A DNA stretch of 64,000 bases, taken from the IMG/VR virus record IMGVR_UViG_3300027759_000044. The stretch is one strand, 5' to 3'. Of the stretch, positions 46,551-51,390 are shown piece after piece. This DNA is from a virus (taxonomy: Duplodnaviria; Caudoviricetes). Numbering within the stretch: the first letter of the stretch is position 1; each line of letters starts with the position of its first letter. Position numbers and translations under genes: made by a program. Under the pieces are notes generated by a model, which saw nothing but the letters and a program-made list of their open reading frames with translations, did not search any database and was not told the origin of the DNA.

Positions 46551-46637
46551 AGCATATTGAAACACACTAACTACCTTGGTATGTACTAAAGTTCAATGAA
46601 CCGCTACGACCCTATCTTTAATGTGCTTCAATATGCT
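46551..46637 (-). ncRNA. Candidate stem-closed ncRNA A
   Basis: 20-bp closing stem with two G-U pairs on minus strand. Confidence 0.6.
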
Positions 46638-46820
46638 CTGCGTCCCCCGGCGGTAATTATAGTACAAAAAGATATGACGCTATCATACCCCTCACACGTA
46701 CCTTCCACCCGCTTCCCGACAGGGACCGTTCTCGCATTGCTAGCGGCCTTTGGGTTTAAAGACTACCACCCGTAGTTGTCACACTACTTCTCATCCTGCG
46801 GGTCACAGTATCCGGAGACA
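46638..46820 (-). ncRNA. Candidate GC-rich multi-hairpin ncRNA B
   Basis: Hairpins CCGG/CCGG, CTGTG/CGCAG, GTAGT/ACTAC, GGGT/ACCC, GTATGA/TCATAT. Confidence 0.45.
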
Positions 46821-46847
46821 CCCGGAACGTTCTTTTATAAATACAGT

Positions 46848-47030
46848 ATGGAACTACAAAACTGTATTGATGTTGTTGAAAAGTTGTTGCGTCAAAACAA
46901 ACGTAATTACAAAGATAGCCACGAACAATTGTTATATGAACGAGGATACCTTACTGGATTACTTGCTAGATTGATGAATGATGACCCTCATATTCTACAT
47001 AAAGTCATAAACAAAACAAATAATCGCTAA
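46848..47030 (+). CDS. Small helical protein, antisense to tRNA array (start 46848)
   Basis: TATAAATA 4 nt upstream. Confidence 0.65.
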   Translation: MELQNCIDVVEKLLRQNKRNYKDSHEQLLYERGYLTGLLARLMNDDPHILHKVINKTNNR

Positions 47031-47031
47031 T

Positions 47032-47123
47032 TGGTGGAGACGGTGAGATTCGAACTCACGGTACATATTACTACATACGACAGGTTAGCAACCTGCTGCC
47101 TTAGGCCACTCGGCCACGTCTCC
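47032..47123 (-). tRNA. trnS: tRNA-Ser(GCT)
   Basis: Long variable arm. Confidence 0.93.
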
Positions 47124-47137
47124 TGATAAATACAAAA

Positions 47138-47659
47138 ATGCAACACAATTTCTTTTACAAAAAAATAGGTAACATATCTGATGATTTGCTTTACGGTTTA
47201 CAAAGTGATGCAATATCTGCAACATATAAATCAACTTCAGATTTTTCATCCAATGTATTAACTACCAGTAATAGAGTTAACAGTAAATTACTTATTAAGT
47301 TATTTACTGAGCTAGCTACTGTGTTTAAAATTATAGGTCATATAGGCACTAATTATGCTAAAATGTATCCATTGAGTTATCTCAAAGAACATAGCGACCT
47401 TTCGTCATATGAAAAAGAACCATTGAATTATTCAACTATGGTAAAATTGCAAATCCCTATCATAACAAATGAAAAAGTAGGAATGATGTGGGCACCAACT
47501 CCTAATGAAACTACACTTGTTAACTTTGATATAGGTGGAATTTACATTATCGATAATGTAAGAACTCACTCTGTGGTAAATCTAAGCAATGAATATAGAT
47601 ATAATCTAACCTCTAGATGGAAGGTTGATTCATTACTTGATACATCAATCTTAGAGTAA
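47138..47659 (+). CDS. AspH-like 2OG-Fe(II) hydroxylase
   Basis: L.EHSD, QIPI.TN, HSVVN...R..L. Confidence 0.65.
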   Translation: MQHNFFYKKIGNISDDLLYGLQSDAISATYKSTSDFSSNVLTTSNRVNSKLLIKLFTELATVFKIIGHIGTNYAKMYPLSYLKEHSDLSSYEKEPLNYSTMVKLQIPIITNEKVGMMWAPTPNETTLVNFDIGGIYIIDNVRTHSVVNLSNEYRYNLTSRWKVDSLLDTSILE

Positions 47660-47662
47660 TAC

Positions 47663-47739
47663 TGGTGCCTCCACCTGGACTCGAACCAGGAACCAACGGA
47701 TTATGAGTCCGCTGCGCTAACCAATTGCGCTATAGAGGC
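47663..47739 (-). tRNA. tRNA with CAT anticodon, probably Ile2 (lysidine type)
   Basis: GACTCATAATC arm resembling enterobacterial ileX; Met not excluded. Confidence 0.75.
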
Positions 47740-47748
47740 ATCATTCTT

Positions 47749-47833
47749 TGGTGCGAGTGCCCGGAATCGAACCGGGATGCCGTTAAGCGAGAGATTTTAA
47801 GTCTCTTGTGTCTACCTATTTCACCACACTCGC
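47749..47833 (-). tRNA. trnL: tRNA-Leu(TAA)
   Basis: Long variable arm; CT-TAA-AA. Confidence 0.95.
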
Positions 47834-47846
47834 AAATCATGTTATC

Positions 47847-47875
47847 ATTATATATCAATCAATGATTGTAGTCAA
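47847..47875 (-). promoter_or_regulatory. Internal sigma70 promoter in tRNA array
   Basis: TTGACT-17-TATAAT; another TAGACA-17-TACAAT near 45957-45985. Confidence 0.75.
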
Positions 47876-47894
47876 ATATTATGGTTAACTAACT

Positions 47895-47969
47895 TGGCGG
47901 TCCCAGCGGGTAACGATCCCGCTCCTCATGCGTGACAGGCATGTATGCGTCCATGAACACTTTGAGACC
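47895..47969 (-). tRNA. trnD: tRNA-Asp(GTC)
   Basis: CT-GTC-AC; G73; non-canonical T loop. Confidence 0.88.
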
Positions 47970-47976
47970 TAATACT

Positions 47977-48041
47977 GAATAGGACACCCCTTTGGCCTAG
48001 GTCATTTAAGAGTACGCCTGCCCAGCGACTCTCCTATATTC
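47977..48041 (-). ncRNA. Candidate three-way-junction ncRNA C between tRNA-Tyr and tRNA-Asp
   Basis: ATAGGA/TCCTAT closing stem; GAGTCGC/GCG(T)ACTC and CCT/AGG arms. Confidence 0.45.
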
Positions 48042-48042
48042 T

Positions 48043-48127
48043 TGGTGGAGATTACTGGGATCGAACCAGTCGTGCTATAAAGCGGCGGATTTACAATCCA
48101 CTGCATCACCATTGATGCTTCATCTCC
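48043..48127 (-). tRNA. trnY: tRNA-Tyr(GTA)
   Basis: Long variable arm; TT-GTA-AA. Confidence 0.92.
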
Positions 48128-48131
48128 GAGA

Positions 48132-48194
48132 TGAGTTACGGTTGCAAGACCTAGTGTCTCATTACTGAGAGAAGTATCAGGGCGATGTAACTCA
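48132..48194 (-). ncRNA. Candidate stem-closed ncRNA D
   Basis: TGAGTTAC/GTAACTCA closing stem 4 nt before tRNA-Tyr. Confidence 0.4.
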
Positions 48195-48199
48195 AAAAA

Positions 48200-49697: not shown

Positions 49698-49704
49698 ATA
49701 TGTT

Positions 49705-49780
49705 TGGTGCCCCCGCCATGAATCGAACACGGGACAACCTGATTACAAATCAGGTGCTCTACCAACTGAGCTACAAGGGC
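49705..49780 (-). tRNA. trnT: tRNA-Thr(TGT)
   Basis: Canonical. Confidence 0.93.
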
Positions 49781-49806
49781 GACTTTTTATTTAATAGTAT
49801 TATACA

Positions 49807-50367
49807 CTAACTTAATAAAATTCTACTATGTTTTGGAACACCTGCTAACAAATATTCCATTTGGTCAGCAAGTATTGTTCTATGTTGTAATATCATATTT
49901 TCATAGTGATTAGGGACATAAGGTGTGTATAGTAATTCCATACGTACTTCTTTCAAACTCTTATGACCTTTTTTACTGTTACAATCTTTACAAGCTGTAA
50001 CAACATTCATCCAAGTGTTTTCACCACCTTTGCTCCGAGGAACAATGTGGTCACGACTTAGTAGATGATAGTTTGGAAACTGTTCCCCGCAATAAGCACA
50101 TACATGTCTATCACGACCAAACAATGTTTTATTGGTTAGTGCCACACATGAATGTTTGTATGGATTGAATCCATGACCTTTTATGGCAATAATGCTACTA
50201 GCTTCTAAGTAACTTAATGTGCCGTCATTTTGTATGCCACCACGATATTTAGCCACAATATTACCCATTGACCATGCTATGGCATCTTTTGCTTTATAGG
50301 TAATTGCGTCATCATTTGATATCCATTGCCGGGGAACTCCCGAGATATCTAGTGCTAGAACAGCCAT
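49807..50367 (-). CDS. HNH endonuclease (start 50367)
   Basis: CAYCG, RDHIVPRSKGG..W.NVVTAC..CN..KG. Confidence 0.92.
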   Translation of the reverse strand: MAVLALDISGVPRQWISNDDAITYKAKDAIAWSMGNIVAKYRGGIQNDGTLSYLEASSIIAIKGHGFNPYKHSCVALTNKTLFGRDRHVCAYCGEQFPNYHLLSRDHIVPRSKGGENTWMNVVTACKDCNSKKGHKSLKEVRMELLYTPYVPNHYENMILQHRTILADQMEYLLAGVPKHSRILLS

Positions 50368-50414
50368 GTAGTACTCCTTTTCTGTTATTATCACTATATG
50401 TATTTAATGCCGAG

Positions 50415-50489
50415 TGGCGGGTCCTGCAGGAATTGAACCCACATCCCGAAGTTCGAAGCATCGTATTCTATCCATTGAACTAAGGACCC
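50415..50489 (-). tRNA. trnR: tRNA-Arg(TCG)
   Basis: CT-TCG-AA; one U-U mismatch in anticodon stem. Confidence 0.85.
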
Positions 50490-50494
50490 GATTA

Positions 50495-50649
50495 AAGAGG
50501 GAGCCTAGCTATCTTATTGTTAGTAAGCCTCGCTAGATTGTCTCGTATAGGCAAGTTTATACACCTATCAATCATACTATAGTGTCATCACAGTTAACCC
50601 CACTGTGACTAGATTGACAGGGACTCAAACCTATCGTCTATCCCATAAC
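50495..50649 (-). ncRNA. Candidate multi-hairpin ncRNA G
   Basis: CTGTCAATC/GATTGATAG encloses GTCACAGT/ACTGTGAT; further TGTATA/TATACG and CTAGC/GCTAG helices. Confidence 0.5.
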
Positions 50650-50727
50650 TGGCACCCCCTCAAGGATTCGAACCTCAGAATGTCGGAATCAAAATCCGAT
50701 GCCTTAGACCAACTTGGCGAAGGGGGT
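50650..50727 (-). tRNA. trnQ: tRNA-Gln(TTG)
   Basis: TT-TTG-AT; G73. Confidence 0.92.
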
Positions 50728-50732
50728 AAATT

Positions 50733-50806
50733 TGGTACCCAGTAGAGGTAACGCTCCTCTGATTCACCCTTATCAGGGGTGTGTTATACTTTTTAACTAA
50801 CCGGGC
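50733..50806 (-). tRNA. trnI: tRNA-Ile(GAT)
   Basis: CT-GAT-AA; non-canonical D and T loops. Confidence 0.85.
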
Positions 50807-50811
50807 ATGTT

Positions 50812-50886
50812 TGGTGGATGTAAGTAGATTTGAACTACTGACCTATTCCGTATGAAGGAATTGCACTACCGCTGTGCTATACATCC
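50812..50886 (-). tRNA. tRNA with CAT anticodon (elongator Met or Ile2)
   Basis: TT-CAT-AC loop. Confidence 0.8.
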
Positions 50887-50965
50887 TGGTACCCCTGATC
50901 GGGTTTGAACCGACAACTGACGCTCTCTCTTGAAGAACCGACTTTTCCTATTTGTCTACAGGGGC
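50887..50965 (-). tRNA. Atypical tRNA-Leu (CAA or AAG register)
   Basis: Leu-type acceptor and D arms; irregular anticodon arm GTTCTTCAAGAGAGAGC. Confidence 0.55.
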
Positions 50966-50971
50966 ATTGAT

Positions 50972-51048
50972 TGGGGTGCTTGATGGGATTCGAACCCACG
51001 TATATCGGAATCACAATCCGAGGTCTTAACCGCTTGACGACAAGCACC
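50972..51048 (-). tRNA. trnH: tRNA-His(GTG)
   Basis: G-1:C73; TT-GTG-AT. Confidence 0.93.
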
Positions 51049-51054
51049 GTGTAT

Positions 51055-51144
51055 TGGTAGAAACGGTGAGATTCGAACTCACGGACCCTTTCGGATCGAC
51101 AGTTTTCAAGACTGTTGCCATAAACCTGACTCGACCACGTTTCC
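51055..51144 (-). tRNA. trnS: tRNA-Ser(TGA)
   Basis: Long variable arm; CT-TGA-AA. Confidence 0.93.
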
Positions 51145-51150
51145 ATATTA

Positions 51151-51226
51151 TGGTGGGACCAGGGCGGTTCGAACGCCCGACCAACGGATTAAAAGTCCGC
51201 TGCTCTACCGACTGAGCTATGGTCCC
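51151..51226 (-). tRNA. trnK: tRNA-Lys(TTT)
   Basis: Canonical. Confidence 0.95.
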
Positions 51227-51232
51227 GTATAT

Positions 51233-51309
51233 TGGTGCGACCGGAAGGACTTGAACCTCCGACTCCCTATTTCGTAGACAGGTACTCTAATCCACTGAGT
51301 TACGGCCGC
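51233..51309 (-). tRNA. trnR: tRNA-Arg(ACG)
   Basis: CT-ACG-AA. Confidence 0.93.
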
Positions 51310-51390
51310 ATTCTAAAACACACATAGTACACCCTAGTCAACAGGGTTGCCCTCTTGGCCTTATTTTCCACGATGTATGTTTTAGAATGC
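51308..51390 (-). ncRNA. Candidate stem-closed ncRNA H
   Basis: GCATTCTAAAACATACAT/ATGTGTGTTTTAGAATGC 18-bp stem with one G-U; inner CCCT/AGGG hairpin. Confidence 0.55.

What the first reader, a model, noticed from the sequence alone, without database searches (positions are those of the whole stretch)
46551..51390. Family of stem-closed RNAs positioned for release by tRNA processing
Seen: elements A (46551-46637), C, D, F (48481-48694) and H (51308-51390) are each closed by a long terminal stem. Their 3' ends lie within 7 nt of the next tRNA 5' end (Cys, Asp, Tyr, Glu, Arg); the H stem even includes the first two tRNA bases. A, F and H share a TG(TG)TTT-like run in the 3' arm. G-U pairs in A and H work only on the tRNA strand. 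Known: RNase P cuts at tRNA 5' ends, and the T4 tRNA cluster yields stable non-tRNA species of unknown function. Inference: tRNA punctuation produces a set of phage small RNAs (decoys or sponges).
Basis: partly seen in the sequence, partly recalled or inferred. Interest (0 to 1): 0.75.

Follow-up and report, generated by a model that had tools for sequence, protein, structure and literature searches.

The report
Helix-framed RNA modules in phage tRNA arrays
Three of the five reported elements (A, F, H) belong to a large, apparently undescribed family of RNA hairpin modules that sit flush against tRNA genes in the tRNA operons of uncultured giant lake phages; they most likely act as processing and punctuation signals that can also carry small structured RNAs.

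Summary
A (46549-46639), F (48479-48696) and H (51308-51390), all on the minus (tRNA) strand, are real. Each is closed by a 22-24 bp helix, and they are the three strongest such inverted repeats in the 64-kb window. Each ends -2 to +3 nt from a tRNA 5' end. C, and D taken as a whole, are not closed by a long stem.

Related IMG/VR giant-phage contigs hold at least 89 distinct elements with the same frame helix (core AAACAYA / UGUGUUU). In a 44-sequence alignment, 15 of 20 helix pairs show compensatory changes. Wobble pairs run G.U 59 to A.C 4 on the tRNA strand, so the fold is selected on that strand, most simply as RNA. A covariance model finds the elements only inside tRNA arrays in three complete genomes. 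Of 110 elements, 66 end at a tRNA 5' end (3.5 expected). Many begin in the CCA end of the previous tRNA.

The helix is constant but the interior is hypervariable: the F slot holds 30 nt or 170 nt. Some interiors (F type) are conserved, covarying RNAs.

Best reading: co-transcribed punctuation and processing frames, cut by RNase P at the tRNA side and probably by RNase III in the two-turn helix. Cleavage and function are inferred, not shown. There is no Rfam or GenBank-phage match. First readers of this scan noted the same stretch, and an F-like RNA in another genome.

The parts
46549..46639 (-). Element A: helix-framed module. The 5' arm is 46618-46639 and the 3' arm 46549-46570. It has a 47-nt interior and lies 3 nt upstream of tRNA-Cys (46470-46545).
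   Evidence: Fold z -7.6. R1 score 70.8 bits on the sense strand against 41.4 on the antisense strand. Copies of 86-97% identity in 11 other loci, some of them the same contig fetched twice. Folds side by side with the tRNA-Cys cloverleaf.
48479..48696 (-). Element F: helix-framed module with a 170-nt structured interior, flush against tRNA-Glu (48403-48478).
   Evidence: Fold z -5.6. In 29 distinct homologues the outer helix CUAUAUG/CAUAUAG is invariant, and two hairpins with GACGG loops have covarying stems. In L001 and L002 the same slot holds the same helix with a 30-nt interior.
51308..51390 (-). Element H: helix-framed module at the head of the array. Its 3' arm includes nt 1-2 of tRNA-Arg(ACG) (51233-51309).
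   Evidence: Fold z -5.6. R1 score 58.6 bits sense against 33.4 antisense. In homologues the helix is conserved but the interiors diverge.
48132..48194 (-). 3' hairpin of 'D': a weaker module with an 8-bp closure, 4 nt upstream of tRNA-Tyr (48046-48127).
   Evidence: Fold z -2.8. In relatives this slot holds other hairpins, or tRNA-Tyr directly.
48197..48402 (-). D core: a conserved structured RNA that is not closed by a long stem.
   Evidence: Matches in 43 loci. 45 predicted pairs, 5 with compensatory changes. High summed depth of RNA contigs.
47970..48045 (-). C: a 76-nt spacer between tRNA-Tyr and tRNA-Asp. It is not a member of the helix-framed family.
   Evidence: Fold z -0.68. Conserved only among close relatives.
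46470..46545 (-). tRNA-Cys, the downstream partner of A.
48403..48478 (-). tRNA-Glu, the downstream partner of F.
51233..51309 (-). tRNA-Arg(ACG), the downstream partner of H.
48784..48893 (-). Tandem near-consensus sigma-70 promoters (48893-48865 and 48812-48784) that drive F, tRNA-Glu, D, tRNA-Tyr, C and tRNA-Asp.
   Evidence: 11 of 12 consensus matches each.
48731..48742 (-). boxA-like GUUCUUUAAAAU in the leader between the promoters and F.
   Evidence: Read. The 9-of-12 match to E. coli rrn boxA is from my own memory of that consensus. The leader is conserved in 34 loci.
51686..51714 (-). Near-consensus sigma-70 promoter upstream of the conserved RNA at 51391-51540, H and the first tRNA block.

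Best explanation
A, F and H are members of a large family of 'helix-framed' RNA modules built into the tRNA operons of a group of uncultured freshwater giant phages.

How it most likely works:
1. The modules are transcribed with the tRNAs from host-type early promoters.
2. A roughly 20-bp, A/U- and G.U-rich helix brings the two ends of each module together. It sits with almost no linker against the 5' end of the next tRNA, and often against the CCA end of the previous one.
3. The helix works as a punctuation and processing frame. RNase P cleavage at tRNA +1 makes the 3' end of the module.
4. The two-turn helix is the kind of duplex that RNase III cuts, as it does the stalks flanking rRNAs in rrn operons. 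At the least, it insulates neighbouring tRNA folds and blocks exonucleases. Either way, upstream RNA, module and tRNA become separated.
5. The interior is a free slot. It is often arbitrary hairpins, and sometimes a conserved structured RNA (the F type, with GACGG loops) that would be released or stabilised by the frame.

Shown here: the helix, its selection on the tRNA strand, its restriction to tRNA arrays, its exact abutment to tRNAs, and the modular exchange of interiors.

Inferred: co-transcription, the nucleases involved, and any function of the interiors.
For: - Strength in the window: A, F and H are the three strongest stem-closed elements in 64 kb, with fold z of -5.6 to -7.6.
- Conservation: syntenic tRNA clusters in 13 IMG/VR loci carry elements of the same kinds at the same tRNAs.
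- Helix support: 89 distinct elements share the anchored helix, and columns -8 to +9 are 90-100% paired except the central column -1. In the 44-sequence alignment A4, 94.7% of cells are paired against 78.7% in shuffles (0 of 500 shuffles reach it). 15 of 20 pairs show compensatory changes, and slid controls give 31-54%.
- Strand: 59 G.U against 4 A.C in 23 stems. Across all scanned loci the counts are 500 against 79.
- Restriction to tRNA arrays: model R1 gives hits at 10 distinct places in three complete genomes (1.23 Mb), all inside tRNA arrays, including a second array in G002. Among 100 GTDB loci fetched by a motif match, only three short MAG contigs, each a phage-type tRNA array, carry real elements.
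- Abutment: 66 of 110 elements end within -8 to +10 nt of a tRNA 5' end (3.5 expected, p about 4e-69). 23 start at a tRNA 3' end (3.5 expected). Their 5' arms often begin with the discriminator and CCA.
- The helix, not the interior, is constant. There are 60 short elements with largely unrelated interiors. The F slot holds 30 nt or 170 nt within the same helix.
- Helix length of about two turns fits RNase III substrates (PMC1540722). RNase III cuts the duplexes flanking 16S and 23S rRNA (PMC8708148).
- Tandem promoters and a boxA-like box precede F, as in rrn leaders.
- RNA-library contigs cover the cluster.
Against: - No cleavage site or RNA end was observed. The only RNA data are assembled contigs, which cannot show ends.
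- A is missing in close relatives (L004, L005) that keep B and tRNA-Cys. An individual frame is therefore dispensable.
- Most tRNAs in the array are separated by 5-10 nt spacers and need no such helix.
- A continuous helix reaching tRNA +1/+2 (H) could hinder RNase P rather than help it.
- The conserved 7-bp core sequence is not explained by a purely structural signal.
- G.T pairs are also tolerated in folded single-stranded DNA, so the strand bias alone does not strictly prove an RNA-level fold.
- The phages encode no RNase III of their own, and the host is unknown.
Confidence: 0.5

Rival explanations
1. Stable small RNAs whose function lies in the interior. The terminal helix only protects the ends, as in other stable bacterial RNAs. 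tRNA processing releases decoys, sponges or protein-binding RNAs.
For: - The F-type interior is conserved in 29 distinct sequences, with covarying hairpins and invariant GACGG loops.
- The Glu2-type interior is conserved while its helix covaries.
- Interiors are richer in G+C and structured, in an A+T-rich genome.
- T4 RNAC and RNAD are a precedent for non-tRNA RNAs from a tRNA region with unknown roles (PMC3014915, PMC9697503).
Against: - Most interiors are unrelated to each other. They diverge quickly even between homologous H copies, while the helix stays the same.
- The same slot holds a 30-nt or a 170-nt interior.
- No interior matches any Rfam family or a tRNA.
- No partner protein is known. 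No Ro/TROVE gene is present.
Confidence: 0.25
2. Selfish or recombinational DNA cassettes: MITE-like hairpins, or boundary sequences like the PeSL cassettes of T4-type phages. On this view the conserved arms exist because they drive insertion, deletion and shuffling of modules, not because of an RNA function.
For: - Conserved inverted arms with variable interiors.
- Several copies per array.
- Presence/absence and replacement polymorphism between close relatives (A, the Glu2 element together with its tRNA-Glu allele, the F interior).
- An HNH endonuclease gene lies inside the array.
- Precedents: PeSL cassettes (PMC2839356, PMC4122927) and Correia elements, whose hairpins RNase III also cuts (PMC2649163).
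Against: - The strong G.U over A.C bias, compensatory changes and sense-strand advantage show selection for a fold on the tRNA strand.
- The elements are not dispersed; they occur only in tRNA arrays and in one orientation.
- The sites lacking A keep a remnant of its 5' arm. This indicates a deletion, not an empty target with a duplication.
- No tyrosine recombinase or Y1 transposase is found in three complete genomes.
Confidence: 0.12
3. A regulatory clamp. By pairing the 5' leader (and in some cases nt 1-6) of the next tRNA, and the CCA end of the previous one, the helix delays or tunes tRNA maturation. Alternatively it shields the untranslated transcript from Rho or RNase E.
For: - Arms overlap tRNA ends by 2-7 nt (H; elements next to tRNA-His and tRNA-Met).
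- In the fold of H plus tRNA-Arg, the helix takes G1 and C2 and no acceptor stem forms.
- A boxA-like antitermination box lies upstream of F.
Against: - A and F do not overlap their tRNA, and A folds side by side with an intact cloverleaf.
- No alternative (switch) pairing is conserved.
- Only a minority of the tRNAs have a clamp.
Confidence: 0.1

Closest known systems
Non-tRNA stable RNAs of phage tRNA regions (T4 RNAC and RNAD, 'species 1 and 2')
   Same: They are non-tRNA RNA genes embedded in a phage tRNA cluster on the tRNA strand, and their function is unknown (PMC3014915, PMC9697503).
   Different: No sequence similarity to any GenBank phage was found beyond tRNAs. Here there is a family of many modules per array. 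It is defined by one shared frame helix with exchangeable interiors and exact abutment to tRNA ends.
RNase III processing stalks of rRNA operons and the T7 R1.1-type sites
   Same: Sequences flanking an RNA pair into a duplex of about two turns within a polycistronic stable-RNA transcript. Tandem promoters and a boxA-like leader lie upstream of F. The helix is rich in A-U and G.U pairs.
   Different: Cleavage has not been shown. The enclosed RNAs are 30-280 nt and mostly not conserved. The helix has a conserved core sequence and touches tRNA ends directly.
tRNA punctuation of mitochondrial transcripts (my own knowledge)
   Same: tRNA ends define the ends of neighbouring RNAs, through RNase P and 3' processing.
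   Different: Here the punctuated units are small hairpin RNAs inside a phage tRNA array, not mRNAs or rRNAs.
Correia/NEMIS elements of Neisseria, and PeSL cassettes of T4-type phages
   Same: Short modules with conserved inverted arms. They are transcribed into hairpins that RNase III can bind or cut (Correia; PMC2649163), or they mediate modular shuffling (PeSL; PMC2839356).
   Different: Those elements are dispersed between protein genes. The family here is confined to tRNA arrays, is strand-specific, and shows RNA-type covariation.

Membership tests
Any Rfam 15 family | A covariance-model match at or near the gathering score | tested here: not met
   Only tRNA reaches threshold in the window. 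Nothing lies on A, B, D, F or H even at E up to 5-10. Nothing lies on elements in five other loci.
T4 RNAC/RNAD-type RNAs | A non-tRNA gene inside a phage tRNA cluster, on the tRNA strand | tested here: met
T4 RNAC/RNAD-type RNAs | Accumulates as a discrete stable RNA | not testable with these tools
   Only assembled metatranscriptome contigs were available. They show cover but no ends.
T4 RNAC/RNAD-type RNAs | Sequence homology to the T4 genes | tested here: not met
   blastn against 50,697 phage records finds only tRNA matches or nothing.
RNase III processing stalk | A duplex of about two helical turns, formed by the sequences that flank the RNA | tested here: met
   19-24 bp helices. The length criterion is from PMC1540722.
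RNase III processing stalk | Staggered cleavage by RNase III | not testable with these tools
   No end-resolved RNA data and no enzyme assay.
Y RNA / YrlA | A terminal stem plus a tRNA-like module, with a Ro (TROVE) protein partner | tested here: not met
   The YrlA model hits only a pair of adjacent tRNAs, at 28 bits. Interiors are not tRNA-like. No TROVE gene in three complete genomes.
MITE / Correia-like transposable element | Dispersed copies in either orientation, with target-site duplication | tested here: not met
   Copies occur only in tRNA arrays and in one orientation. Sites lacking A keep a remnant of its arm. No recombinase or Y1 transposase.
Integron attC site | A folded inverted repeat recombined by an integron integrase | tested here: not met
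   No tyrosine recombinase in G001-G003.
Intrinsic terminator | A short G+C-rich hairpin followed by a U run | tested here: not met
   A, F and H are not listed by the terminator scan. H has no U run.

The most novel reading that the evidence does not exclude
The frame helices define an RNA-gene cassette system. A constant two-turn helix acts both as the recombination boundary that lets giant phages swap small structured RNAs (for example protein-titrating or anti-defence RNAs such as the GACGG-loop F RNA) in and out of their tRNA operons, and as the processing signal. On this reading the hairpin serves as a tRNA surrogate, so that RNase P and/or RNase III release each cargo and also make the mature CCA end of the preceding tRNA.
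Probability: 0.2. Interest if true: 0.85.

Novelty: new variant of a known kind. Interest (0 to 1): 0.62.

Why it matters
Phage tRNA clusters are usually annotated as tRNAs plus 'spacers'. Here the spacers are a rich set of conserved RNAs, and one family has a simple, recognisable design: a constant two-turn helix, a free interior, and ends flush with tRNAs.

If the helix is a processing frame, it shows how giant phages organise maturation of 25-30 tRNAs from long transcripts. It would also offer a natural, portable 'insulator and release' part for expressing small RNAs.

If the interiors are functional cargo, the family is a catalogue of new phage small RNAs. That would make the old question of what the non-tRNA RNAs of phage tRNA regions do (T4 RNAC/RNAD) approachable by comparative genomics.

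Tried and rejected
- Rfam at gathering and permissive thresholds: nothing but tRNA.
- GenBank phage collection, near and distant modes: only tRNA matches.
- Related loci through the TctC-like protein: none. Loci L014-L039, found through the 2OG-oxygenase, were distant and were not used.
- Phage-encoded RNase III, Ro/TROVE, tyrosine recombinase and Y1 transposase: absent from three complete relatives.
- Interiors as degenerate or rewired tRNAs: one interior (L013 188-293) contains a T-arm-like run, but no tRNA model hit falls inside any element in five loci.
- Terminator reading: rejected.
- Metatranscriptome contigs (X15-X18): they cover the cluster, with the highest summed depth over B and D. 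The bins holding H and the 5' half of F have little cover. Contigs cannot show ends or absence, so I draw nothing from the low bins.
- GTDB motif scan: almost all of the 120 listed matches are consistent with chance for a 17-nt degenerate pattern. Only three short MAG contigs, themselves phage-type tRNA arrays, hold real elements, so no host can be named.
- MAFFT/RNAalifold on the F interior gave no usable consensus beyond the outer helix. The hairpin covariation was read directly from the alignment.
- Literature searches found no description of this family.
- Not used: the metagenome-contig scan.

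
Full report
SETTING

The window comes from an uncultured, A+T-rich phage. It holds 26 tRNA genes between 44089 and 51309, all on the minus strand. ARAGORN finds 25, and Rfam adds tRNA-Tyr at 48046-48127. No whole genome is held for the window, and no GenBank phage resembles the region beyond single tRNAs.

Five near-consensus sigma-70 promoters (11 of 12 matches) all point along the tRNA strand. Two of them form a tandem pair at 48893-48784, just upstream of F. Host RNA polymerase therefore very probably transcribes the array and everything between the tRNAs.

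THE OBSERVATION

On the tRNA strand:
- A (46549-46639) folds with a 22-bp closing helix, z -7.6.
- H (51308-51390) folds with a 22-bp helix, z -5.6.
- F (48479-48696) folds with a 24-bp helix around a 170-nt multibranched interior, z -5.6.

A scan of both strands of the whole 64 kb for stem-closed elements finds these three as the only ones scoring 42 or more. The weaker hits are one tRNA-tRNA T-arm pairing and repeats inside coding sequence.

The 3' arms end 3 nt (A), 0-2 nt (F) and -2 nt (H) from the next tRNA 5' end, so G1 and C2 of tRNA-Arg lie inside the H helix.

C is a weakly folded spacer (z -0.68). D as a whole is not stem-closed (z -0.41). D is a conserved ~205-nt core followed by a separate small hairpin (48132-48194; 8-bp closure, z -2.8) that ends 4 nt before tRNA-Tyr.

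The observation therefore holds for three of the five elements.

RELATIVES

The DnaJ-like gene inside the array retrieved 13 IMG/VR loci at 58-93% protein identity. They come from contigs of up to 524 kb and carry syntenic tRNA clusters.
- Elements of the same three kinds sit in front of the same tRNAs: the H kind at Arg-ACG, the A kind at Cys, and the F kind at Glu.
- A second helix type, 'Glu2' (130 nt), occurs at Glu or Asp.
- Two motif scans of IMG/VR brought in about 120 further loci.
- Across all loci I found 170 distinct sense-strand stem-closed elements (score 36 or more). Of these, 89 share one anchored helix with the core AAACAYA paired to UGUGUUU.

The family falls into sub-types by the outer part of the helix:
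- GCAUUCU... at the head of arrays (H type).
- CUAUAUG... after promoters (F type).
- ACCAUAU... between two tRNAs.
- GCAUAUU... at Cys (A type).

IS THE HELIX A SELECTED FOLD?

Four lines of evidence say yes.
1. Wobble bias. In 23 distinct stems there are 441 Watson-Crick pairs, 59 G.U and only 4 A.C. Over all scanned loci the sense strand has 500 G.U against 79 A.C. On the other strand every G.U would be an A.C mismatch.
2. Pairing and covariation. In the tool alignment of 44 short elements (A4), the 20-bp helix is 94.7% paired against 78.7% after shuffling (0 of 500 shuffles reach it). 15 of 20 pairs show changes on both sides (141 cells). Sliding the partner by 1-3 columns drops pairing to 31-54%.
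3. The 3' arm. It is more conserved than the 5' arm, as expected when the A/C-rich arm can change by transitions into wobble pairs while the G/U-rich arm cannot.
4. Strand scores. The covariance model R1 scores the sense strand 15-25 bits above the antisense strand.

One caveat applies. G.T is also tolerated in folded single-stranded DNA, so the bias proves a fold of this strand. RNA is by far the simplest reading, because this is the transcribed sense strand.

WHERE THE ELEMENTS SIT

- R1 finds hits at 10 distinct places in three complete relatives (1.23 Mb). All lie inside tRNA arrays, including a second 31-tRNA array of the 524-kb contig.
- Of 100 bacterial or MAG loci fetched by a chance-prone 17-nt motif, only three short MAG contigs carry real elements. 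Each is itself a phage-type tRNA array.
- Among 110 non-redundant elements (score 40 or more), 66 end within -8 to +10 nt of a tRNA 5' end (3.5 expected, p about 4e-69). 23 begin at a tRNA 3' end (3.5 expected).
- Counting neighbouring elements as well as tRNAs, 73 of the 110 end within 10 nt of the next module. Seven of those abut another element, so modules also stand in tandem.
- In the inter-tRNA type, the 5' arm begins with the discriminator and the encoded CCA of the preceding tRNA. The 3' arm ends in the first 3-6 nt of the next tRNA, so the hairpin fills the spacer exactly.

CONSTANT FRAME, FREE INTERIOR

- The 60 short elements carry largely unrelated interiors of 27-82 nt.
- H-type copies keep the helix while the interior diverges beyond recognition.
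- In the F slot, behind the same leader and within the same helix, L001 and L002 have a 30-nt interior where the window has 170 nt.
- L102 has the A-type helix with a different interior.
- A is missing from L004 and L005, which retain a remnant of its 5' arm. This indicates a deletion, not an empty target.
- The Glu2 element comes together with a different tRNA-Glu allele.

Some interiors are clearly selected. The F type (29 distinct sequences) keeps GGUUACC...CCGUUAGG, GUAAUG and two hairpins whose stems covary around invariant GACGG loops. The Glu2 interior is conserved while its helix covaries in L012. No interior resembles a tRNA or any Rfam family.

MECHANISM

Established knowledge:
- RNase P cuts at tRNA +1.
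- Substrates of E. coli RNase III typically have about two helical turns (PMC1540722).
- RNase III cuts the duplexes that flank 16S and 23S rRNA in rrn transcripts (PMC8708148).

The frame helix is a continuous duplex of about 19-22 bp, rich in A-U and G.U pairs. Its central position is non-canonical (U.U or A.C) in about half the members. F lies behind tandem promoters and a boxA-like box, the layout of an rrn leader.

I therefore read the helix as a punctuation and processing frame. RNase P defines the 3' end. A duplex-specific cut, most likely by host RNase III (the phages encode none), or at least the helix as an insulator and exonuclease stop, separates the module from upstream RNA and from the preceding tRNA.

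This is inference; no cleavage was observed. RNA-library contigs from four metatranscriptomes cover the array but cannot show ends.

Points against this reading:
- Single frames are dispensable (A).
- Most tRNAs in the array have none.
- A helix that reaches into the tRNA (H) may hinder RNase P, whereas A coexists with a normal cloverleaf.

RIVALS

1. Credible for the F and Glu2 types, weak for the many arbitrary interiors.
2. Selfish or recombinational cassettes, like MITEs, Correia elements or PeSLs (PMC2649163, PMC2839356, PMC4122927). This fits the modular polymorphism. It does not fit the strand-specific covariation, the restriction to tRNA arrays, the lack of target duplications, or the absence of a recombinase or transposase. 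A frame that is both a processing signal and a recombination boundary remains possible, and it is my 'novel case'.
3. A clamp that delays tRNA maturation or shields the transcript.
4. Y-RNA, attC and terminator readings failed their defining tests.

NOVELTY

Non-tRNA RNAs in phage tRNA regions have been known since T4 RNAC and RNAD, whose roles are still unknown (PMC3014915, PMC9697503). Processing stalks are textbook.

New here:
- A widespread sequence-and-structure family defined by one frame helix.
- Its exact abutment to tRNA ends.
- Its exchangeable interiors.

I found no Rfam family, GenBank annotation or paper describing it. First readers of this scan noted the same stretch, and an F-like RNA in another genome.

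VERDICT

I class it as a new variant of a known kind, of moderate to high interest.

Noticed in passing
window 46641-46845 (-): B is a G+C-rich structured RNA directly upstream of A. It has 43 predicted pairs, 19 with compensatory changes, and an invariant stretch around GGUCCCUGUCGGGAAGCGGGUGGAAGG. It matches 35 loci and has no Rfam match. It also has the highest summed RNA-contig depth of the region: depth 4489 at place 46714 in run X17.
   Followed up: partly
window 48197-48402 (-): The D core is a ~205-nt conserved RNA between tRNA-Glu and tRNA-Tyr. It is the most widespread module (43 loci) and has 5 compensatory pairs. RNA-contig depth reaches 2338 at place 48284 in X18. It has no Rfam or GenBank-phage match.
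   Followed up: partly
window 50490-50649 (-): G is a conserved structured RNA upstream of tRNA-Arg(UCG). It is closed by a 5-bp GGGA/UCCC-type helix and has a long-range inner helix. 8 pairs show compensatory changes, and it matches 20 loci.
   Followed up: partly
window 51391-51540 (-): A conserved ~150-nt structured RNA lies directly upstream of H. 10 pairs show compensatory changes, the fold z is -3.4, and it matches 23 loci. It has invariant runs such as GGGCGGACAG.
   Followed up: partly
window 51730-52013 (-): A consensus promoter, a ~245-nt conserved unit with a 45-codon ORF, and an intrinsic terminator (51764-51735) lie ahead of the array. Another agent of this scan read this as a leader-peptide attenuator (e1-5368473). 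I did not test that reading.
   Followed up: no
window 48930-49544 (+) and 49807-50394 (-): A DnaJ-like gene lies on the opposite strand inside the array, and its 3' end overlaps tRNA-Arg(UCU) by 13 nt. An HNH endonuclease gene lies between tRNA-Thr and tRNA-Arg(UCG).
   Followed up: no
G002 (IMG/VR contig of 524,565 bp), 112-130 kb (L166) and 410-431 kb (L007): One contig carries two separate tRNA arrays of 31 and 25 tRNAs with similar gene order, and both contain frame-helix elements. This is either a genuinely duplicated array or a chimeric or concatenated assembly.
   Followed up: no
L001, L005 versus window 48403-48478: The Glu2 element travels with a different tRNA-Glu sequence. The [stem-closed RNA + tRNA] unit seems to be exchanged as one cassette.
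   Followed up: partly
L169, L210, L240 (GTDB MAG contigs): Short contigs binned as Planktophila, Crocinitomicaceae and Bacteroidetes MAGs are dense phage-type tRNA arrays with several frame-helix elements. These are probably phage fragments binned with bacteria, so they are not host evidence.
   Followed up: partly
window tRNA genes, e.g. 51151-51226, 51233-51309: The phage tRNA genes encode their 3' CCA. In the inter-tRNA elements, this CCA is the start of the frame helix.
   Followed up: partly
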